Assembly: GCA_000004985.1 (NCBI GenBank)
Contig: GG738869.1
DNA length: 64,000 nt
From: Naegleria gruberi
Lineage: Eukaryota
Direction: 5' to 3' (one strand)
Shown: positions 15,910 to 62,984 of the stretch, piece after piece
Layout: each line of letters opens with the position of its first letter
Numbering within the stretch: the stretch's first letter is position 1
Notes under the pieces: generated by a model
Told to the model about the DNA's origin: nothing
Databases searched by the model: none
The model's input: only the letters and a program-made list of their open reading frames with translations
Position numbers and translations under genes: made by a program

Positions 15910-17912
15910 ATGCTTCCATCCACGTCAAATGGCAACCCATCATCATCGGGTGATGAAGCAAATCAACAAGGAAAATTAAAGAAACCTGTAAAATCAGTCA
16001 TTCCAAAACTTCAAAATTGTACAGTTAATTTATCATTATTTAGAAAAGTAGCTGCCGATGAATTGAGAGAAATGATAGATTCGGTGGTAAGTCTTCTTAT
16101 TTCATCAAGACTTTGATCATCATCAATTATTAATTTAATTTTACACTATATAATCATGATACAATCAAATGTAAATAATAGCAAACTGCAAATCCTCATA
16201 AGGCCTTTGTTTTTGATCCGGAATTGATTGGACCACTTTCATTAATTGTTCCGTATAGTTTTTTCATTGCTAAAGGAACAGGTGCTACTGAACCAGAGAT
16301 TGGATTAATCAAACAAGACAAGATCAATTTTAAAACTAATGTTGGAAGTGTATTTTATGTGACAAGACCTAGAATTGATTTAATCAAGATTATGGCATCA
16401 CAAATTAATCATATTGTTTCACAACCATCACCACCAAATATTTACATTGTATTTGTGCCAAGAAGAACTTTGATTTGTGAAGTTTTATTGGAAAAGATGA
16501 ACATTTTACAACACATTCAAAAACCTTTATTAGAATTTTCTCTTGATTTTATTCCATTTGATAATGATCTTCTTTCTATGGAATTACCATATGCATTCCG
16601 TGAATTTGAAGTTGATGGTGATTATTCAGCTCTTTACAGTGTTGCAAGATCTATAATGAAGTTACAATCTGTGTATGGCATAATTCCAAATATCAAATAT
16701 GTGGGAAAGAGTGCTAAAATGGCCTTTGAAATTTTGCAAGAAATGACTCACAAATCTGAAACTAATCTAAATCAAATCAATCCAAGTATTGGAAATTTAA
16801 TATTCTTTGATAGAAAAGTTGATTTGGTGAGTCCTCTCGTAACACCATTGACCTATGAAGGTCTTTTTGATCTGTTTTATAGAATTCAAAATAACTTGGC
16901 AACTATTCCTTTCTTAGCTCAACCAGTAAAGAAAGAAGAAGGTGAGGAAGAATCACAACAACAGCAGCAACCAGTTAAAAGAGTTCCAACAAGATTGCCA
17001 CTCAATGATGATGACGAAGTTTTCAAACAAGTTCGTCACATGAACTTCCTTGGTGTTGGTGCTAAATTGGGTTCAATCACTGAAGAAATTGATAGGATCT
17101 ATGAAAAGAGAAAAACACTCAATGCTGTAGATGAAATCAAAAGCTACTTTACTCTATTGCCTGAAGTTCAACAAAAGCACAAGGATTTGACTGCACATAT
17201 TACCATTGCTACAGAAATTAAGAAGGAAACCTTAAAGCAAGAATTTAGAAGAAGAATTCGTACAGAACAAGATATTTTGTCAGGTGAAGATCCAAAGGCA
17301 TGTATTGAGTATATAGAATCATGTATCATCAGACAAGACAGTATTACCTCTGTTTTAAGATTGATTTGTTTGTATAGCATTGTGAGAAATGGGTTGAGTC
17401 AATCTGAGTATGATCATTTGAGACAAGAAATTGTACACAGTTATGGACATTTTGCTGTTCTTTCTTTAAAGAATTTGGAAGAAGCAGGTCTGCTCAAAAA
17501 ATCTCAATCTAAAATCAATTGGTCCTCATCTCCTTTTGCCACAATGAAGAAGGGATTGAATTTAGTTGTGCAAGAAATGACAGATGAAACAAACCAAAAG
17601 AATATGGCTTATGTGCACTCGGGCTATGCTCCAATGAGTTGTAGAATTATTCAAGAATCACTTAATAATTCTAAATGGGAATCTTTGAAATCATTATTCA
17701 AAGGAACTGAACATGTAGAATTCATAGGTGAAAGTGTTTCTCCAGGTATGCAAATTTCTAGTCAAGATGTTACTGTAGTATTCTTTTTGGGTGGTTGTAC
17801 GCTTGCTGAAATCAGTGCTCTCAGATCAATTACCAATCATCGTTTCATTGTACTGACAACCAAGATTATTAACTCTGATAATTTCATTTCTTCCATGTTG
17901 GAAAAACTTTAA
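15910..17912 (+). CDS. vps33: Vacuolar protein sorting 33 (Sec1/Munc18 family), 2 exons
   Basis: Exons 15910-16086 and 16203-17912, with a 116-nt GTAAGT...AG intron. The protein is collinear with VPS33A-type motifs: FVPRRTLICE, DFIPFDNDLLSME, HSGYAPMS and VFFLGGCTLAEISALR. Confidence 0.85.
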
Positions 17913-31440: not shown

Positions 31441-32367
31441 ATGAACAGAATCTTGATCGCAACTTTTGCAATTTTGGCTCTCGTTATTAGTGCTCAAGCA
31501 TTTACTATTGGAGGAATTAAATTCAATGCTCCAAAGGATAACGAAGAAGTCTGTAAGTCCTTTGCCAATAGATATGAACCATTCGACTACTTCCTCCTCA
31601 GGTAGGTAAAATAATCATCATGATGAACTAATTCATTTACACAGTATTCAATGGCCAGGTACTGCTTGTGTCGGTAAGAAGCCAGGTGAATGCACTGTCC
31701 CAGATTTTGTCAATGATTTTACTCTCCATGGTAAGTATTTTCTATTTGATAATAGTAGAGAAATTTAAACTATTATTTAATGCATGCGATGAAAATTTAT
31801 GAATTTTTCAATCATCACGTCATCAATTATTATAACAATATATTATTATTATTATTATTAATAGGACTCTGGCCACAATACAACAATCCATCTACCTATC
31901 CAGAATGTTGTTGGAATATTGATTTTGATGCCAATGCCATTGCTCCAATTAGAGACCAAATGAACAAGTTGTGGCCATCTTTCTATCACTCCAATGAACA
32001 TTTCTGGACTCATGAATTTGTCAAGCATGGTACTTGTTCTAATTCTACTTTGGATAATTTGGAATATATCTACTTCTCCAATACTCTCAAGATTTTCAAT
32101 AAGATGCATCTTCTTGATGCCTTGAAGGGATCTAATATTGTTCCATCTCATGGAGGTTATCAAAGAGAAAGAATGGAAAGTGCTTTGGCTGCTGCTGGTT
32201 ATCCAGGAGTTGTTGCTTGTTTACGTGATCGTACCAACATTGGTGAAATTAGATTCTGTGTTGATAAGAATACTTTGCAATTGAAGAAATGTGACCAAGC
32301 TCTTATTGATAATATTCATCAACATAATGGATGTAAGGCAACTGTCAATTTCCCTCCAATTCATTAA
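31441..32367 (+). CDS. Secreted ribonuclease T2 family, 3 exons
   Basis: Exons 31441-31601, 31645-31730 and 31865-32367. Introns are 43 and 134 nt, and the second carries an (ATT)n tract. It has a signal peptide (MNRILIATFAILALVISAQA), CAS I (FTLHG|LWP across intron 2) and CAS II (FWTHEFVKHGTC). Confidence 0.85.
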
Positions 32368-32560: not shown

Positions 32561-34804
32561 ATGCCAAACATCATCTTTCTTCTTTTGAGTATCTTTGCGT
32601 GCATAAACATCTTTTCATTAAGTCTCATACTTGCACAATCAACCCCACAACAATTAAAACAACACACTCTCATAAACATTAAACAGTCAATCATCAAGCA
32701 GCAACTTCAACAACTCTCAAGTATCACCATAATTTCAGCATTAAATCATTTAACAGTCGTTTCCTTCTCACCCAAGCTCAAACTTTCATCTCCGAAGGAT
32801 TTACATGACAAACGAATAGTTATCATTAATCCAATCTCTTCCACAACAGATATCTATGATGAGGAATCTGATTTGTTAGTGAGAGGATTGTCGCTCACTG
32901 AAACAATTTTTAAAAGTCAATTGGAAATGTTTAACAAACAATTGACAAATGAATCACAGATAATTATACCTCGTAGTATTAAATCTTATGATTTGGTGTT
33001 TTATGATTGTGTATTTGGGAATCCACTCGAATTATTTGATGTTTTTGTAATGAGTTCTGAAGATTTTCTTGGAAGTTTTGTGTTAGGAGTTCCAAAGATG
33101 ATAGAAACTAATGGTCTATATGAATGGAATGATTTTTCCTTCCTCAAAGAGTTTCAAGTGCCTATTTCAGTTTCGGTTTATTATAATGAAACTGTATTGG
33201 ATGAAACTAGTGTGAAAAATCAATTAGATACTGTTTATTTGGGACTAAATCAGTTATATTTCAATAGAACAAGTAATTATGAATTGTACAGAAATTTAGG
33301 ATACATGTTATATGAAACTGGTTATGGAAATGTTTCGAATTATGAAAGAGAATTTATAACATATTATCTTACTCAATATAATGATGTACCATTGAAGAAA
33401 AAGAAGCCCACTTTACAATTTTATCCCTTCTCAAGCAGAAAGTACACTCAAGAATACGAAACTCTATCTCAACAATATTACAATCAGTCAACTTCAAAAA
33501 TGACAATCAATTCAATGTATTGTTATGAAAAGTATAATGACGCATACACAGTTTGCTCGAGTAACAATAGAACAGCTAATATTGTATACGATACCATTAA
33601 TTTAGTAACCATTGTCATTGGAATTCTATTCTATGTTGCTCTATTAAGTGTTTGTAACACTAAATCAATCAAAAGAAGATTGACGGCTCCATATATTCTT
33701 CCATTATTGACAATTGCTTGTAATATTGCCTTTTCTTCATATTCTAATACATGCAGATCAGTTAAGAGTGCTTTTATTGTTTGCTTAATTGCAGCAATTA
33801 TTGGAGTTTACGGATTTTCCTTATTGAGATTCACCTATCTAAGATATTTATATCTGTTCCTTTCCAAAGCTAAGGGTGAAGTCTCAATTAAAATTCACAA
33901 AATTCTAGTTTCTTCCACTTTCGGCATTGTCGGATCATTACTCTTTGGAATGGCCTATGCCATTGTTTGGATGATTGTTTGTGTCCCGTTCATTAATAGC
34001 AGAATTTACTACTCAGATACTCAATACGTATTCAATATCATGTACGTGGTTGTAGTATTGTCAGGCACATTAATTGGAACAATTATCATTCTATTGGATG
34101 CTGCACTCAATTGGAAGAAAATTAAGGATAAGGGTATTTATACATTCTTAACCTTTGAAGATCCATTTGGGTTGAGAATGGATTTGCTCTATTTTTTGGT
34201 GATTATTATTGCAACTGTTTCCATTACAATAATTTCACCATTTCCATTCGAATATCAGGATATAGTGGTTGGACTATTGAAAGCAGTGGCATTTGTGTTT
34301 ACGTACATGTTGGCTGGAGGAACAGCAATTATTATTGAGTGGAAAAGATATATTTCTAAAAAGAGGAATATAGATTCGGATGAAAATAATGAAAGTGTTA
34401 GATTTGAGGCATTGATGAAAGATGAATTGTTCAAGGAACTATTCGAAATGTATTGTTCTAAAGAGTTTTCCTTGGAGAATGCCTTACTGTATGAAGAATT
34501 ACAAAACCTGAAAGAGGCGCATCAACAAGATGATTTAATGCCATTCGATTCGTACAAACGCTTATACGAAACCTATTTTCAATCACTTTCAAAATATGAA
34601 GTCAATCTTCCATCACCAGTTAAGAAACAACTAATATCTCTTTATGAAGCAAAAGAATCCATCAAATTCTCAAAGGTTTATGATCTTGTTAGAACTGAGC
34701 TCTTGTTCAATCTGAATGATACTTTTGAAAGATTGAAAGAAACATCAGAATTTAAAAGATACTCATTCTCCAGAGACGTCCAATTAAAGAATAGTATTGT
34801 TTAG
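32561..34804 (+). CDS. Seven-transmembrane receptor with C-terminal RGS domain (7TM-RGS, AtRGS1-like topology) and large N-terminal ectodomain
   Basis: 747-aa single exon. It has a signal peptide, an ectodomain of about 320 aa with many N-glycosylation sequons, and seven hydrophobic helices (residues ~340-600). The RGS box is EFSLENALLYEELQNLKEA...YETYFQSLSKYEVNLP. Confidence 0.65.
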   Translation: MPNIIFLLLSIFACINIFSLSLILAQSTPQQLKQHTLINIKQSIIKQQLQQLSSITIISALNHLTVVSFSPKLKLSSPKDLHDKRIVIINPISSTTDIYDEESDLLVRGLSLTETIFKSQLEMFNKQLTNESQIIIPRSIKSYDLVFYDCVFGNPLELFDVFVMSSEDFLGSFVLGVPKMIETNGLYEWNDFSFLKEFQVPISVSVYYNETVLDETSVKNQLDTVYLGLNQLYFNRTSNYELYRNLGYMLYETGYGNVSNYEREFITYYLTQYNDVPLKKKKPTLQFYPFSSRKYTQEYETLSQQYYNQSTSKMTINSMYCYEKYNDAYTVCSSNNRTANIVYDTINLVTIVIGILFYVALLSVCNTKSIKRRLTAPYILPLLTIACNIAFSSYSNTCRSVKSAFIVCLIAAIIGVYGFSLLRFTYLRYLYLFLSKAKGEVSIKIHKILVSSTFGIVGSLLFGMAYAIVWMIVCVPFINSRIYYSDTQYVFNIMYVVVVLSGTLIGTIIILLDAALNWKKIKDKGIYTFLTFEDPFGLRMDLLYFLVIIIATVSITIISPFPFEYQDIVVGLLKAVAFVFTYMLAGGTAIIIEWKRYISKKRNIDSDENNESVRFEALMKDELFKELFEMYCSKEFSLENALLYEELQNLKEAHQQDDLMPFDSYKRLYETYFQSLSKYEVNLPSPVKKQLISLYEAKESIKFSKVYDLVRTELLFNLNDTFERLKETSEFKRYSFSRDVQLKNSIV

Positions 34805-36780
34805 ATTCAGTTTTTGGATAATTCTCCTCTTCAACAGCAATACTTTGATGGTATAACTTTCCAATAATTGAAGTTGATCTTATTTTACCTCCCATATAGT
34901 CAGGTCTCTCATTATATTCATGTATCCAATCTGGAAGCGCTACTAGTTGACCATTCTTACTTGATTCCATAACAACATCTGACAAGGCAGCCAATTCTTT
35001 TGCTCGAGGACTGTCTGCACCTTCCTGTTCACATACAACAACCCATGTATTGCAAATTATTCCAATCTTTCCGTGTAAATATTAAGGAATTATACTAAAC
35101 ACATTCACAACTTACATTACTACTCATTCTAAACTCAAAAACATTAGCACTAGTCCACCAATAGTTTTTCAAGAGATGATGGGAAAAGTTGGAAAGTGCA
35201 GTGTTGACACATTTCTTAAGATCAAATTGTTTAAGTGTATGGCCAAACTCATTAGCTTTACTCCACCAACTTTGAATATATTGTGCTTGTGGAATAATTT
35301 CAGTATTCCAAGAGGTAAAAAACCTATCACCATCTTTGAATTGCAAGTTAGAAATTGAAAATAAATGAAAGTTACCTAACTCACCTGGAATGTTGTGTTG
35401 CTGACAATCGGCAGCGAAAATAATAACACTTCCTTTTAAATCAACTTCATGTCCAAACCATTTCTGATAGTAATCTGGGATGGATACGGTTTCGAATATT
35501 CTTACATCTCGTGGATGAAGTCCAGGATTTCTGAAAACAATAACTTTTTTCCCACCTGGAACCATACGCCCATTCTTTGTAATGACAATAACTTGGTTAT
35601 CTTTCAATTGTTTAGTTTCGTCCAAAATTCCTTTAGCAATAACTGAATCTTTCATAAAAAACTTTGTTTTTTCCTTAGCATTCTTGATTCTTGCCCTAAA
35701 TTCTTCATCATTTCGACACTTATTTCTAGCAAGGGCTTTTTTTTGTGCATTAAGAAACACTTCATCCTTAACTTGCAATGAACTTAACAAAATAATTATT
35801 TGTCTATTAATATTTGCCGTGTCTGATTCATTCAATCCTTCAACAATTTCCAATTTGTTGAAAAGAGGATTCCCCTCAAATTTCTTCATGCTCTCTCTCA
35901 GAATGATTTGATTGCCATTCATGATCTTGTCTGGACATACTGTCAACATTCCCTTAAATCCAAGAAATCTAATCTGGAAAGCACGAGGAATGTGAACATA
36001 TTTTCCATCAATGCTTTGATCTCTCAAACTACAGCAAACTGCCTTGGCAAATGAGTAACTAATCATACCAATACCATCTGACACAATTCCTTTTCCATCT
36101 CTTGAATTAATGTCATCAATTACTATATATTTGTGAACACGAATTGTTTCTTTGGTGGAAGTGAAATTAAGACACTGTCTTGCAATTTTGGTTTCAATTT
36201 CAGAGGCATAGATCCCAAAGATGTCCATCATTTTCATTGGATCCTCTTCACATGTAAAGTAAACTCCCCTCTCTGAAAGTAAACTTGAAGAAGCACCAAT
36301 TGGCTTGAACATTTGTCCATATAAACAAAAGCCTTTCAGTGTTGTTTGCATTACTGTGGAATCTCTTTCATCTTCAAAGTCAACTCGGATGAATTTATCA
36401 ATTCCATAATATCTAAATACCTTGTTATAATCAATCTCGGCAAATTCAAATGATTTTAAATTGGTTGATTTCACTCTTCTTATCAATTCGGTTTGTTTTA
36501 CAGCGCTTTCATCAAATTTAAATAAAGTATGACACTTCTTCTCTGTAACCACATGTCTATAAAGTTGCTGTGAGAAGTGATACAAACATTGAGTCAGTTC
36601 TTCCTTTGCATTAACAAATTGTTCTGTCTGTTCCTTGAACCATTTACAAAATGGTGCATCTCTATGTTTTTGCAAGTAATGTAACAATAAGCTCCTTTGA
36701 TTATCGATTGTAATGCAACAATGATCGTTTAACCAACCCCATGCCTGTGACCACATTTTTTTGATATTCATTTGTTGCAT
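34752..36780 (-). CDS. RNA-dependent RNA polymerase (eukaryotic RDR/RdRP family), 2 exons
   Basis: Exons 36780-35116 and 35024-34752, with a 91-nt GTAAGT...CAG intron. It has the catalytic DxDGD-type motif (NLQFKDGDRFFTSWN) and the downstream RdRP signature LPDWIHEYNERPDYMGGKIRSTSIIGKLY. The last 53 nt of CDS overlap, antisense, the 3' end of the 7TM-RGS CDS. Confidence 0.7.
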
Positions 36781-38078: not shown

Positions 38079-39610
38079 ATGAAACCATCATCATTTCCTC
38101 TTCTAATTAAATTATTTTCAAAACACAATCATCATCGTCATGGTGTGAATGTTCTAGGTGTTTTATTAATAGCTATTTTATTATTTAGTGTAGATAATGT
38201 ATTTGGAATTTATTCAAGTAAGATTTTTACGATACAACCAGGTGCTGAATATAATGTTGTGGATTTAGAAGGATCAGGTTTTGGATTTTCAACAGGAGGA
38301 TTGGCCAAGTTTAATTTTACAACTAAACAAGTATGTTTTGATAGGATTTCGATTTTTAATTTGTAATAGTCGGCCGATTCTGCAAATCTTGTTTTTGTAA
38401 TGCTTCCCTATAAATTCTGGGCAGTATTACACTCGGCAAAGTGGGATAGTGATCCTTCATATGCTCAATATATGTGTGATATTCCTTCTAAATTGGTAAG
38501 TTTCAGTTGACTGAAATATTATTCTAATCAGAGTAGAGAATTCCAATCACATCTTCAAGTATTGATGCTGTAGTTTCTTATTCTGATAATGAATTGGTTG
38601 CATTGGATGATTACTCTTATTCAATTTCAAAATCCATTACTATTGATACATCTTCCCACTACTCTCTTCTCTTGTTGAAATGTGAACCTTCTGCACCAAG
38701 TGCAGCATTATCTATAAGAGTAGATATGGAACTTATTAATCCTAATGGACAACATTTGAGTACTCAAAAGCACCCTTACATTTTGATCTATTTCACTTTG
38801 ATGATTGCTAATGGAGCATTGTTGACCTATTTATTATTCTTCTTCTTGAAAAACAAAAGACATATTTTCCGTCTTCAAATTGTAATTGGAGTAGCAATCA
38901 TTTTGCAAATTATCAGTCATGCCTCTGTATTTACCTATTTCGAATATATTAATATTGAAGGAAAAATGTCTGATGCTCTGGATATTACATTATCTGTAAT
39001 AAGTGTGTTTGGAGATACAGGATTTTTACTCATGTTATTAGCTATTTCAATTGGATATTCTATTATGGAAGATTCCCTCAATCCAAAGGCAAAATTTTTG
39101 TTCATTTCCTGCTTTGTTGTTTATTTAGGTACAAGAATTATGTATGCATTTTGTAAGGACTCCTCTATTTGCTCTATTTTCCTTTTGGTATTCAGAGTGG
39201 TTAAATTTGTAATCACTTTTGCAATTATCATAGCTATGGTAAGTTGAATGAAACCAAAATTACTAAAACATTTCAGAATCAAACAATAGATAGACTTAGA
39301 ATACAAGCTGCAGAACAACAGTTCAGTAACGATAACCAAAGTGAAGTGTTCATCAAGATGAAGAAGTACAAGTAAGTTATTTTGTATCTTTCAACAAAAT
39401 TAACATTGTTAAAGAGCATTCAGATTGGCATTCCTTCTTTACTTGATGGCTCCTGTAATTTCCCTCTTTGTACAATATACTATTTTAACATGGGTTAATT
39501 TTTGGGTGTTGTCCATGATTGAAGAGCTATTGGTATTTTACATGAACTATTTTGTAGTTACCAACTTTTATCCACAAGCTTTCGATGTATCAAGACCACA
39601 TCAAGATTAA
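38079..39610 (+). CDS. GPR107/GPR108-like (LUSTR/TMEM87 family) seven-transmembrane protein, 5 exons (tentative family)
   Basis: Exons 38079-38330, 38370-38495, 38537-39238, 39277-39371 and 39415-39610. Introns are 39, 41, 38 and 43 nt. It has a signal peptide, a luminal domain (LPYKFWAVLHSAKWDSDPSYAQYMCD, INPNGQHLSTQKHPYILIY) and then a multi-pass TM region. The stop codon is shared within TTAA with the convergent F-box/SPRY gene. Confidence 0.4.
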
Positions 39611-60743: not shown

Positions 60744-62984
60744 ATGTCTCAAGATAAAGCCAACAGAGAACATATCGCAAAGCTTGTTGTTGAAGCAGTT
60801 AAAAATATCTATGATGTGGATGTTAGCTCCCTTCAAAACGAGTTTGCCAGTAAATTGGAATTACCAAAGGAATATGATATGCTTCACAATATTGCTTTCC
60901 CATGTTTCGCTTTGGGAAAGCCTTTGACTCCAAAGAAGCCTAAAGAAGTCAAATTTAATGATTTCATCATGAATATTGCTTCCGATTTGGCAAAGGAAAT
61001 AAGTAGAATTGTCAAGGAAAAAACTGATGTTGTTGTTGAAAATTGTGTAGGTGAAGGTCCATATGTCAACTTCTTCTATCAACCTGCTCACTTAGGAAAA
61101 GCTATAGAAGAGGTTCACAATGGAAATTTCCTTTCCGTTAGAGAATCAAAGAATGAAAATGTCATGATCGAATATTCTCAACCAAATACTCACAAGACCT
61201 TCCACGTTGGTCACATGAGAAATGCAGCTCTTGGTAATTCACTTGTTTTGTTATACGAATGGTGTGGTTACAATGTACACGCTGTCAATTATATTGGTGA
61301 TGTTGGTGCTCACATTGCTAAATGTTTATGGTACTATCTTTACTACATCAAAAAGACAACTTTGGAAGAATTCGAAGCTCTTGACCTTACTCGTGAACAA
61401 ATTGTTGACATGTTGGAAGAATCTAGACCAAAGGATATTCCTCATGTTGAATGGTTGGGTAACCTTTATACTGAAGGTTTCTATCAATTAGACTTTGATT
61501 CTTGGACTAAATATCCACTTATTGGATACATTACTGCTAAAATTTTGGACATTCAAAACCATCCAACTAATGACAAATGGAAGATTCTCACTGTCACCAA
61601 TGGAACTGAAAACTTTACTGTTGTTTGTGGTGGTAAGGATTACAATGTTAATGACATTGTTGCCTATGCTCCACTTGGTAGTAAGAAGGGTGCTAGACTT
61701 GTTACTGAAGTTGATAAGCAAGGTGTTATCTCACAAGGTTTCATTTTGAGTCAAGCTGAACTGGGTAGCTCTGAAAATAAGGAAAAGATTCACATTTTCC
61801 CTGCTGATTCACCAGTTGGTATTGAACTCACCGAATTGGGAAGAAAGGCAGACTGTAATGTTGATGCTTCTATTAACATTGGTCAAGAATTCAAGAAGAG
61901 AGAATCACAATGTAAGACTCTCTTGAGAGCTATGGAAGATCACAAGAAGAATATTTCCATGTTGTGGGAAATCACTAGAACTTGGTCAATTGAAGACTTT
62001 AAATCTATTTATAAGTGGAGTGACTGTAGATTCGACCACTTCTTCCATGAATCTGATGTTGGTGATGAAAGTAAGGAAATTGTTCTTAAGGCCTACGAAG
62101 AAGGTAAACTTATCAAATCTGATGGTGCTATTGGCGCTGATTTGGGTAAGCTTGGTTTCTGTGTTTTGTTGACTTCTGCTGGTACTGGTTTGTACGCTAC
62201 TAAGGATTTGGCTCTTGCTAAGAGAAAATTCGAAGAATTCAAAGTTGACAGAAGTGTATATGTTGTCGACGTAAGTCAAAGCTTGCACTTCCAACAAGTC
62301 TTCAAGACATTGGAAGTCCTTGGTTTTGAACAAGCTAAGAAGTGTAAACATTTAGCTTATGGTATGGTTGTTTTACCTGATGGTAAAATGAGTAGCAGAA
62401 AGGGTAACATTATCTATTTCAGTACTCTTCAAAAGTCACTCACCCAAAATATTACTGACAACTTTATGTCCAAGTATGAAGGTGAATGGCCAAAGGAAGA
62501 AATTGAAGAAACTACCAGAAAGATTGCCATCAGTGCCATCAAATATGGTATGCTTAACCAAGATAACAATAAGGATATTACCTTTGTTCTCAAAGAATGG
62601 GCTTCAAAGTCTGGTAACACTGGTCCATATCTGATGTATGCTTATGCTAGAGCTGTTTCCGTTGTTAACAAGATTGGTTTGGATAGCAGTGTCACTATTG
62701 ACTACTCATTATTAACTGATGAAACTGAAAGAAAGCTTTTGTCAACAATTCTCCAATATTCAATTGTTGTTGAAAGAGCTGCTGAACAATACAAGCCACA
62801 ATTGCTTTGTATCTTCCTCTACAATCTCTGTAAGCAGTACAGTAAGATGTATGAAGCTGTCAGTATCAGAGATGCTGCTACCCCAGAACTCAAACAAACC
62901 AGATTGAGATTAGTTGCTGGCTTCGCAAAGGTTCTCAAACATGGTCTTGGATTGTTGGGTATTTCAACTGCTGAGAGAATGTAA
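60744..62984 (+). CDS. argS: Arginyl-tRNA synthetase with an inserted EMAPII/Trbp111-type tRNA-binding OB domain
   Basis: 746-aa single exon. It has the Arg-tRNA-synt N domain, the HIGH-type motif HVGHMRNAALGNSLVLLYEWCGYNV, the ArgRS MSTRKG-type motif DGKMSSRKGN and the DALR anticodon-binding domain. It ends ...LGLLGISTAERM, as ArgRS proteins do. Residues ~258-341 (nt 61515-61766) are an extra OB-fold tRNA-bind domain: GYITAKILDIQNHPTNDKWKILTVTNGTENFTVVCGGKDYNVNDIVAYAPLGSKKGARLVTEVDKQGVISQGFILSQAELG. Confidence 0.85.
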   Translation: MSQDKANREHIAKLVVEAVKNIYDVDVSSLQNEFASKLELPKEYDMLHNIAFPCFALGKPLTPKKPKEVKFNDFIMNIASDLAKEISRIVKEKTDVVVENCVGEGPYVNFFYQPAHLGKAIEEVHNGNFLSVRESKNENVMIEYSQPNTHKTFHVGHMRNAALGNSLVLLYEWCGYNVHAVNYIGDVGAHIAKCLWYYLYYIKKTTLEEFEALDLTREQIVDMLEESRPKDIPHVEWLGNLYTEGFYQLDFDSWTKYPLIGYITAKILDIQNHPTNDKWKILTVTNGTENFTVVCGGKDYNVNDIVAYAPLGSKKGARLVTEVDKQGVISQGFILSQAELGSSENKEKIHIFPADSPVGIELTELGRKADCNVDASINIGQEFKKRESQCKTLLRAMEDHKKNISMLWEITRTWSIEDFKSIYKWSDCRFDHFFHESDVGDESKEIVLKAYEEGKLIKSDGAIGADLGKLGFCVLLTSAGTGLYATKDLALAKRKFEEFKVDRSVYVVDVSQSLHFQQVFKTLEVLGFEQAKKCKHLAYGMVVLPDGKMSSRKGNIIYFSTLQKSLTQNITDNFMSKYEGEWPKEEIEETTRKIAISAIKYGMLNQDNNKDITFVLKEWASKSGNTGPYLMYAYARAVSVVNKIGLDSSVTIDYSLLTDETERKLLSTILQYSIVVERAAEQYKPQLLCIFLYNLCKQYSKMYEAVSIRDAATPELKQTRLRLVAGFAKVLKHGLGLLGISTAERM

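What the first reader, a model, noticed from the sequence alone, without database searches (positions are those of the whole stretch)
34752..34804. Convergent RdRP and 7TM-RGS genes overlap by 53 bp of coding sequence
The RGS-domain receptor CDS ends at TAG 34802-34804 on the plus strand. The RdRP terminal exon runs to its TAA at 34754-34752 on the minus strand. So 53 bp encode both C-termini in antisense, and the 3' UTRs must overlap completely. Transcription of either gene yields RNA antisense to the other, and one partner is itself an RNA-dependent RNA polymerase. This is a natural sense/antisense pair that could feed siRNA production.
Basis: seen in the sequence. Interest (0 to 1): 0.5.

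Follow-up and report, generated by a model that had tools for sequence, protein, structure and literature searches.

The report
Convergent RdRP and 7TM-RGS genes overlap
In this Naegleria gruberi window a truncated RNA-dependent RNA polymerase gene and a receptor-like RGS gene do share 53 bp of coding sequence tail to tail, but this looks like an ordinary by-product of a very compact genome, not a dedicated small-RNA device.

Summary
The + ORF 32561-34804 encodes a signal peptide, about 7 TM helices and an RGS domain, and ends at TAG 34802-34804. The RdRP terminal exon (35066-34752, minus) ends at TAA 34754-34752. The overlap is 53 bp. Both ends are supported. Nine Naegleria/Willaertia 7TM-RGS proteins end within one residue of this stop and share a tail motif. 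The RdRP exon follows a typical 49-nt GTAAGT intron and on its own matches Pfam RdRP positions 494-581/582 (E=5e-8). The public model NAEGRDRAFT_67889 has no introns and stops at 35095, so the overlap is not in the public annotation.

Only the last 17 RdRP codons overlap. They have no homologue and lie beyond the RdRP domain end (34845). Staying open that long in this antisense frame has P about 0.24. Other convergent pairs in the window lie -4 to +91 bp apart, and the published median 3'UTR is 39 nt, so antisense 3' ends are probably routine here. Two related metagenome contigs carry no RdRP downstream of the RGS gene. The two 3'UTRs cannot overlap each other. siRNA production is untested. 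Most likely this is an incidental overlap created when a C-terminally truncated RdRP was placed against the RGS 3' end.

The parts
32561..34804 (+). 7TM-RGS gene, single exon of 747 codons, with stop TAG at 34802-34804
   Evidence: ORF. Pfam RGS at aa 615-710. Signal peptide plus six strong and one weaker hydrophobic segment at aa 346-593. 262 homologues at E<=0.001.
34403..34690 (+). RGS domain (Pfam PF00615, profile positions 2-96/117)
34751..34801 (+). Conserved, fixed-length C-terminal tail of the 7TM-RGS family (FKRYSFSRDVQLKNSIV). This is the constrained partner in the overlap.
   Evidence: Gapless alignment of 9 Naegleria/Willaertia/metagenome proteins, all ending within one residue of each other. 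Organisms.
34752..34804 (.). The 53-bp stretch that is coding on both strands
34752..35066 (-). RdRP terminal exon (104 codons plus TAA at 34754-34752). Residues 1-74 (35066-34845) are the conserved end of the RdRP domain. Residues 75-104 (34844-34755) are a tail without clear homologues.
   Evidence: Pfam RdRP 494-581/582, E=5.4e-8, for the exon alone. Alignment to P0002-P0004.
35067..35115 (-). Intron B, 49 nt, GTAAGT...AAAG, phase 0
   Evidence: It matches the local intron norm. The public model reads through it to TAG 35097-35095.
35116..35333 (-). RdRP exon 2
35334..35384 (-). Intron A, 51 nt with donor GTGAGT at 35384, or 42 nt with donor GTAACT at 35375. Removing it restores the catalytic loop as PDGD or ELDGD.
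   Evidence: The ELDGD version aligns with DLDGD of the homologues.
35385..36780 (-). RdRP exon 1, from ATG 36780. The public model starts at the ATG at 36756.
34783..34788 (+). ATTAAA, the only canonical-type poly(A) hexamer on the + strand within 34300-35300. It lies 14 nt before the RGS stop and is a candidate signal for an ultrashort RGS 3'UTR.
   Evidence: Signal usage in N. gruberi from PMC11529991. Actual use is inferred, not shown.
34534..34539 (-). ATTAAA, the first canonical-type poly(A) hexamer downstream of the RdRP stop (213 nt), inside RGS coding sequence
   Evidence: Actual use is inferred, not shown.

Best explanation
This is an incidental tail-to-tail coding overlap in the compact Naegleria gruberi genome. 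The RdRP gene here is C-terminally truncated. It keeps the Pfam RdRP domain to its last position but lacks the roughly 170-residue C-terminal domain (PF26253) of its homologues. Its recognisable similarity to other RdRPs stops at about 34806, exactly where the RGS coding sequence ends on the other strand. Past that point the RdRP frame simply stays open for 17 codons in the antisense of the RGS tail until the first in-frame stop. Within the 53 bp the RGS tail is the selected reading, being a family-wide, fixed-length motif. The RdRP tail is a passenger. The two mRNAs must be complementary over at least 53 nt plus both 3'UTRs, as is probably true for most convergent pairs in this genome. Any effect, such as transcriptional interference or some dsRNA, would be generic and not a property of this pair. 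Shown here: both stops, both gene ends, the absence of PF26253, lack of conservation of the arrangement, and the close spacing of other pairs. Inferred: the rearrangement or truncation history and the lack of a dedicated function.
For: Organism and gene identified: P0001 = NAEGRDRAFT_67889, N. gruberi. The RdRP domain ends at exon residue 74 = nt 34845. Homologues carry about 170 more residues and PF26253, and tblastn finds no trace of these in the window. The RGS tail is conserved in length and motif in 9 proteins from N. gruberi, Willaertia magna and metagenomes. The probability that this antisense frame stays open for 17 or more codons is 0.235. Other convergent pairs lie 91, -4, 28, 46, 46 and 86 bp apart. 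One clear pair (Sec1-family gene with a 689-aa ORF) and one probable pair share a TTAA stop/stop overlap. The median N. gruberi 3'UTR is 39 nt (PMC11529991). Orthologous contig L001 aligns to window 32897-34803 at 68% nucleotide identity. Homology ends at the RGS stop, and there is no RdRP in the next 770 bp, only a + strand gene. L002 is likewise. [quoted passage not shown]
Against: No transcript, poly(A)-site or small-RNA data could be examined, so a regulatory use of the overlap cannot be excluded. Only two related contigs with flanks were available, and neither is a close sister of N. gruberi (61% and 44% protein identity). The arrangement could therefore be conserved among closer relatives. 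At 53 bp this is the largest overlap in the window. The word-index protein searches have limited recall, so absence of RdRP orthologues in other Naegleria is not proven (one search returned only P0009 and none of the paralogues found).
Confidence: 0.65

Rival explanations
1. The pair is a functional cis-natural-antisense pair. Overlapping RdRP and RGS transcripts anneal, Dicer makes siRNAs from them, and these regulate the RGS receptor and/or feed back on RdRP expression. This would resemble the autoregulated convergent RNAi genes of fission yeast.
For: The coding overlap guarantees at least 53 nt of complementarity. No AATAAA lies within 500 bp on either strand, and the first ATTAAA after the RdRP stop is 213 nt inside the RGS CDS, so the duplex could be much longer. 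Dicer and Argonaute homologues are reported in Naegleria (PMC4791657; PMC9928731; PMC13315211). In S. pombe most RNAi genes are convergent and autoregulated (Gullerova et al. 2011, as described in PMC3900390).
Against: There are no RNA data. The arrangement is absent from both related contigs. Close or overlapping convergent ends are the rule in this window, so nothing singles out this pair. The overlap length is within chance. The RdRP lacks the first Asp of DxDGD and the C-terminal domain, so its activity is uncertain. I found no paper demonstrating RNAi experimentally in Naegleria.
Confidence: 0.12
2. There is no translated overlap. The public intron-less model is right, or the terminal exon is a decaying relic, so the RdRP product ends at TAG 35097-35095 and the region 34752-35066 is untranslated 3' sequence or a pseudo-exon.
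For: The only public model (P0001, 553 aa) ends '...NVSCECV' at 35095. Several normally conserved RdRP motifs in the terminal exon are degenerate, for example AVDFPKTG reads VVMESSKNG and HAD reads VCE. No transcript-derived protein carrying the spliced junction is in the collection (the cluster has a single member).
Against: The terminal exon alone passes the Pfam RdRP gathering score (32.4 against 23.8 bits) in the frame set by a canonical 49-nt GTAAGT intron. Seventeen residues invariant among the four aligned RdRPs are kept in it. The frame is open for 109 codons in a genome with about 0.075 stops per random codon (my base-composition estimate; 0.05-0.08 measured in antisense frames). The public model also keeps intron A in frame, which breaks the catalytic loop, so it is evidently unspliced. 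Even under this rival the RdRP transcript would still run antisense into the RGS gene.
Confidence: 0.08
3. The whole RdRP gene is a non-functional remnant, truncated and catalytically impaired, on its way to loss. The overlap would then have no consequence for the RdRP protein.
For: It lacks PF26253 and about 340 N-terminal residues relative to the plant RDR structures 7w82 and 7eu0. Its loop is ELDGD or PDGD instead of DxDGD. No orthologue was found in other Naegleria or in Willaertia, nor in JGI metagenome contigs.
Against: About 640 codons across three exons are uninterrupted. Most invariant motifs are retained: SDGIG, FQ.R..G.KG, NRQ..LLSSL, NP..HP.D and LDGD. The last Asp of the loop, the one reported as required for catalysis (PMC4791657), is present.
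Confidence: 0.12

Closest known systems
Convergent (tail-to-tail) cis-natural antisense gene pairs in compact eukaryotic genomes, e.g. the 645 S. cerevisiae pairs with overlapping 3'UTRs (PMC3900390)
   Same: Two protein-coding genes on opposite strands have 3' ends that interpenetrate, so complementary 3' transcript ends are expected. Such pairs are frequent in the genome.
   Different: Here the overlap reaches into both coding sequences (53 bp), not only the UTRs. No expression data exist for this pair.
Autoregulated convergent RNAi genes of Schizosaccharomyces pombe (Gullerova, Moazed & Proudfoot 2011, cited in PMC3900390)
   Same: A gene of the RNAi toolkit (RdRP) sits in a convergent pair, so its own transcript could be a substrate for dsRNA formation.
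   Different: In S. pombe read-through dsRNA, RNAi-dependent transient heterochromatin and cell-cycle regulation were demonstrated. Nothing of this is shown in Naegleria, the partner arrangement is not conserved in relatives, and the RdRP is truncated.
Plant nat-siRNA loci such as Arabidopsis SRO5/P5CDH (from my own knowledge: Borsani et al. 2005)
   Same: Convergent protein-coding genes whose overlapping 3' regions could yield siRNAs, with an RdRP involved in the pathway.
   Different: At the plant locus siRNAs were detected and depend on DCL, RDR6 and stress-induced expression of one partner. Here no small RNAs have been examined, and the RdRP is one of the two overlapping genes, not a trans-acting factor shown to act on the pair.
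Eukaryotic cellular RdRPs (Pfam PF05183; plant RDR2/RDR6-type structures 7eu0, 7w82)
   Same: The Pfam domain is matched from profile position 16 to 581 of 582 at 246 bits. Most invariant motifs are present.
   Different: At about 640 aa it is much shorter than the 1000-1170-aa solved plant chains. It lacks the C-terminal PF26253 domain and N-terminal regions. The first Asp of DxDGD is replaced.
7TM-RGS receptors (AtRGS1-like; reported as widespread in bikonts, PMC3971589)
   Same: A signal peptide, about seven TM helices and a C-terminal RGS domain.
   Different: It has a roughly 340-residue N-terminal extracellular region and a lineage-specific conserved C-terminal tail shared by Naegleria and Willaertia paralogues.

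Membership tests
Convergent cis-natural antisense (cis-NAT) gene pair | Two genes on opposite strands whose exons overlap at their 3' ends | tested here: met
   The CDS models overlap at 34752-34804.
Convergent cis-natural antisense (cis-NAT) gene pair | Both transcripts exist and are present in the same cells | not testable with these tools
   No RNA data are available. No transcript-derived protein with the spliced junction is in the collection.
nat-siRNA-generating locus | Small RNAs of both polarities map to the overlap and depend on Dicer/RdRP | not testable with these tools
   No small-RNA data. The literature only reports that Dicer and Argonaute homologues exist in Naegleria.
nat-siRNA-generating locus | The arrangement is maintained by selection, i.e. 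conserved in relatives | tested here: not met
   L001 (orthologue, 61% aa identity) and L002 (44%) have no RdRP downstream of the RGS gene. L001 homology ends at the stop codon. Only two relatives were available.
Eukaryotic cellular RdRP (PF05183) | Pfam RdRP domain above the gathering score | tested here: met
   246 bits against a cutoff of 23.8 for the spliced model. The terminal exon alone scores 32.4 bits.
Eukaryotic cellular RdRP (PF05183) | Catalytic DxDGD loop | tested here: inconclusive
   The loop reads ELDGD (donor at 35375) or PDGD (donor at 35384). The last two Asp are present and the first is absent. The last Asp is the one reported as required (PMC4791657).
Eukaryotic cellular RdRP (PF05183) | C-terminal domain PF26253 that follows the catalytic domain in homologues | tested here: not met
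   It is present in P0002-P0004. It is absent after 'GKLYHQ' in the window protein, and tblastn finds nothing elsewhere in the window.
7TM-RGS receptor | RGS domain C-terminal to seven transmembrane helices | tested here: met
   Pfam RGS at aa 615-710. The hydropathy scan gives six strong segments at aa 346-593, and a weaker one around 376-394 read by eye.
7TM-RGS receptor | GTPase-accelerating activity on a G-alpha subunit | not testable with these tools
   This needs biochemistry.
S. pombe-type autoregulated convergent RNAi gene | An RNAi-pathway gene lies in a convergent pair | tested here: met
   The RdRP converges with the RGS gene.
S. pombe-type autoregulated convergent RNAi gene | Read-through dsRNA, RNAi-dependent H3K9 methylation and cell-cycle-dependent repression | not testable with these tools
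   No chromatin or RNA data.

The most novel reading that the evidence does not exclude
The sole detectable RdRP gene of N. gruberi is wired into a sense/antisense pair with a G-protein-signalling receptor gene. RdRP mRNA and RGS mRNA would form dsRNA that is diced into siRNAs, giving a feedback loop in which RNAi capacity and receptor expression regulate each other. This would be a heterolobosean counterpart of the autoregulated convergent RNAi genes of fission yeast, here with a true coding overlap.
Probability: 0.07. Interest if true: 0.55.

Novelty: new member of a known kind. Interest (0 to 1): 0.2.

Why it matters
If the overlap is merely incidental, as I think, the practical value is in annotation. 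The public N. gruberi RdRP model (NAEGRDRAFT_67889) is unspliced. It breaks the catalytic loop and lacks the last 88 positions of the RdRP domain. The neighbouring 7TM-RGS gene appears to be missing from the public protein set. The locus also illustrates how far compaction goes in this genome, since three of eight convergent pairs in 64 kb share coding bases. If the pair did generate siRNAs, it would be a handle on endogenous RNAi in Heterolobosea, where no RNAi function has been demonstrated. It would also be a natural test of whether an RNAi gene can be autoregulated through its own antisense partner.

Tried and rejected
1. Exact look-ups of the 747-aa RGS product and of P0001 in the contig index found nothing, so I could not see the public gene calls around the locus. 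P0007 and P0008 were also not on record.
2. A word-index search with the whole RGS protein returned nothing. With its last 220 aa it returned only P0009. The exhaustive representatives search was needed.
3. A metagenome scan for RdRP relatives gave 30 pattern matches, none confirmed.
4. I asked whether the 746-aa ORF at 60744-62984 is a paralogue of the RGS gene. It is not.
5. I looked for a 3' intron that would remove the overlap. All 77 GT-AG combinations in the RdRP tail leave the stop inside the RGS CDS, and none has a donor like the confident introns. An RGS 3' intron is excluded by the gapless family alignment to the C-terminus.
6. I looked for remnants of the RdRP C-terminal domain downstream or elsewhere in the window. 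There are none.
7. Literature searches for the gene identifiers, for Naegleria antisense or small-RNA data and for RdRP in Naegleria found no data on this locus. The supplements of the N. gruberi direct-RNA paper are not held. Gullerova et al. 2011 is not held.
8. I did not run a structure prediction. It would not bear on whether the overlap is functional.

Full report
**What the window is.** The best hit of the minus-strand RdRP ORF is P0001, 'predicted protein [Naegleria gruberi]' (NAEGRDRAFT_67889, XP_002677050.1, UniProt D2VG84). It is identical to the unspliced reading of window 36756-35095. GC content of about 33% and short introns fit this organism.

**Checking the observation.**
- On the + strand a 747-codon ORF starts at ATG 32561 and ends at TAG 34802-34804.
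- It has a Pfam RGS domain at residues 615-710 (E=9.5e-8).
- It also has an N-terminal signal-like segment, and six strong hydrophobic segments at residues 346-593 plus a weaker one read by eye. That is a 7TM-RGS architecture, a type reported as common in bikonts (PMC3971589).
- On the minus strand the large RdRP ORF (36780-35095; Pfam RdRP E=1.5e-60) is followed by a frame open from 35078 that closes at TAA 34754-34752.
- The two stops give a 53-bp stretch, 34752-34804, that is coding on both strands. It covers RGS residues 731-747 and the last 17 RdRP codons plus the stop.

**Is the RdRP terminal exon real?** The public model has no introns and stops at TAG 35097-35095 ('...NVSCECV'), so the overlap is not in the public annotation. 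Three results show that the spliced model is right.
- A GTAAGT...AAAG intron of 49 nt (35115-35067, phase 0) joins the two frames. It is typical of the window, where confident GTAAGT introns are 38-51 nt.
- The translated exon alone matches the last part of the Pfam RdRP profile, positions 494-581 of 582, at 32.4 bits and E=5.4e-8.
- In an alignment with a tomato, a Rhizophagus and an unnamed RdRP it keeps 17 invariant residues. These lie in the blocks G.I.N, LA.L, K.G, PD.M and G.LY.

A second intron removes an in-frame insertion that splits the catalytic loop in the public model. It is 51 nt from GTGAGT at 35384, or 42 nt from GTAACT at 35375. The loop then reads PDGD or, in better agreement with homologues, ELDGD.

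**Is the RGS end real?** An exhaustive HMMER search found 262 relatives. The closest full-length ones are two N. gruberi paralogues (NAEGRDRAFT_48032 and _81945), four Willaertia magna proteins and two metagenome fragments. The last 150 residues of all nine align without gaps through to the C-terminus. Every protein ends within one residue of the window's stop, and they share a tail motif E[FY]x[KR]W...[IL]Q....[IV][IV]. The orthologue P0009 has FKKYSFSRDIQLKNSIV against FKRYSFSRDVQLKNSIV here. So the RGS stop is genuine, there is no 3' intron, and the 17 overlapped RGS codons are under selection.

**Could a hidden intron remove the overlap?** The RdRP domain ends at exon residue 74 (nt 34845). 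I enumerated all 77 GT-AG pairs with a donor after that point. None places the stop outside the RGS CDS, and most push it deeper. The four available donors (GTATTG, GTTGAA, GTCTCT, GTATCT) do not resemble the donors of confident introns. The overlap therefore stands on the best gene models.

**Is it more than chance?** No.
- The overlapped RdRP codons belong to a 30-residue tail that follows the end of the Pfam domain and has no clear homologue. There is only a weak acidic-patch resemblance, EEENYPKTE against KEEDYKPY, up to about 34806.
- Homologues continue for about 170 residues with domain PF26253. That domain is absent here and anywhere else in the window.
- The RdRP is thus truncated just where the RGS gene ends, and its frame runs on until the first stop.
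- In the antisense frame concerned, stops occur at 0.08 per codon across the genes of this window. A run of 17 or more open codons has probability 0.235.

**Context in the genome.**
- Six other convergent pairs in the same 64 kb have stop-to-stop distances of 91, -4, 28, 46, 46 and 86 bp.
- The -4 case is a Sec1-family gene, whose Pfam match reaches the end of the profile, sharing TTAA with a 689-codon ORF.
- The GOST_TM gene's probable last exon and a SPRY-domain gene share TTAA in the same way at 39607-39610.
- Direct RNA sequencing of N. gruberi gave a median 3'UTR of 39 nt, with AAUAAA as the main signal (PMC11529991). Transcripts of most of these pairs must therefore overlap.
- In this locus there is no AATAAA on either strand within 34300-35300. 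An ATTAAA lies 14 nt before the RGS stop, and the first ATTAAA after the RdRP stop is 213 nt inside the RGS CDS. The duplex would be at least 53 nt and possibly a few hundred.
- The two 3'UTRs lie on opposite sides of the overlap.

**Relatives.**
- The orthologous RGS gene was found on a 2677-bp metagenome contig, L001. It aligns to window 32897-34803 at 68% nucleotide identity, and homology ends at the stop codon. The next 770 bp hold no RdRP by tblastn but a + strand gene for a Lys/Cys-rich secreted protein.
- A more distant homologue on L002 is likewise followed by a + strand gene.
- No RdRP orthologue from another Naegleria or from Willaertia appeared in the protein search, and none in a metagenome scan. 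The word-index search has imperfect recall.
- So the arrangement looks lineage-specific. The coincidence of the L001 homology break, the end of RdRP similarity and the RGS stop suggests a rearrangement breakpoint there. This is an inference.

**Is the RdRP functional?**
- In its favour, about 640 codons in three exons are uninterrupted, nearly all family-invariant motifs are retained, and the last Asp of the loop is present. That Asp is the one reported as required (PMC4791657; alignment).
- Against it, the first Asp is lost and motifs in the terminal exon are degenerate.
- Also against it, the protein lacks the N- and C-terminal regions of the solved plant RDRs.
- I cannot decide this by computation.

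**Mechanism and comparison.**
- The best-supported reading (confidence about 0.65) is an incidental overlap. Compaction, plus truncation of the RdRP against the RGS 3' end, left an RdRP tail that free-rides on the constrained RGS tail.
Dicer and Argonaute homologues exist in Naegleria. In S. pombe convergent RNAi genes are autoregulated through read-through dsRNA (Gullerova et al. 2011, as summarised in PMC3900390).
- Nothing singles this pair out from its neighbours, it is not conserved, and no RNA data could be consulted.
- Convergent pairs with overlapping 3' ends are a well-known feature of compact genomes, making up more than 20% of S. cerevisiae genes (PMC3900390). I therefore class this as a new member of a known kind, of low to moderate interest. 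Its main concrete yield is a corrected RdRP gene model.

Noticed in passing
window 35067-35115 and 35334-35384 (minus strand): The public N. gruberi RdRP model NAEGRDRAFT_67889 / XP_002677050.1 is intron-less. It keeps intron A in frame, which splits the catalytic loop as 'IPGELGNFHLFSISNLQFKDGD'. It terminates inside intron B, so it lacks Pfam RdRP positions 494-581.
   Followed up: yes
window 35320-35390 (minus strand): After splicing the catalytic loop reads ELDGD (donor GTAACT at 35375) or PDGD (donor GTGAGT at 35384) instead of DxDGD. The first Asp is missing either way, and which donor is used is undecided.
   Followed up: partly
window 34752-34845 (minus strand): The RdRP lacks the roughly 170-aa C-terminal domain PF26253 of its homologues. 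Residual similarity ends at about 34806, and the L001 orthologous contig loses homology at 34803. Together these suggest a rearrangement breakpoint exactly at the RGS stop codon.
   Followed up: partly
window 17909-17912 and 39607-39610: Two further convergent pairs share a 4-bp TTAA in which the two stop codons overlap. One is a Sec1-family gene with a 689-aa ORF. The other is the probable last exon of a GOST_TM-family gene with a SPRY-domain gene.
   Followed up: partly
window 34751-34801 (+); P0006-P0016: The 7TM-RGS proteins of Naegleria and Willaertia share a fixed-length C-terminal tail E[FY]x[KR]W...[IL]Q....[IV][IV]-COOH after the RGS domain. Its function is unknown. A C-terminal sorting or docking signal is a guess.
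   Followed up: partly
window 32561-34804 (+): Neither this 747-aa product nor anything at least 90% identical to its last 220 residues is in the 5.8-billion-protein collection, although two N. gruberi paralogues are. The gene may be missing from, or modelled differently in, the public N. gruberi annotation.
   Followed up: partly
L001 2269-2676 (+): In the related metagenome contig the gene after the RGS orthologue encodes a signal peptide followed by a very Lys/Cys-rich protein (KHCKRKCLKHKWIKKCLKHK...). It has no counterpart in the window.
   Followed up: no
window-wide gene 3' ends (e.g. 1709, 12 bp below 7955, 22649, 43900, 49409, 54663, 59669, 62984): In about 11 of 26 gene ends inspected, an AATAAA or ATTAAA hexamer overlaps the stop codon or lies within 7 nt after it. 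This fits the 'dual-use stop codon / ultrashort 3'UTR' pattern published for N. gruberi. The RGS and RdRP ends are among those with no such hexamer at or after the stop.
   Followed up: partly
window 31780-32367 (+): A ribonuclease T2 family gene lies directly upstream of the 7TM-RGS gene (Pfam E=3.8e-35).
   Followed up: no
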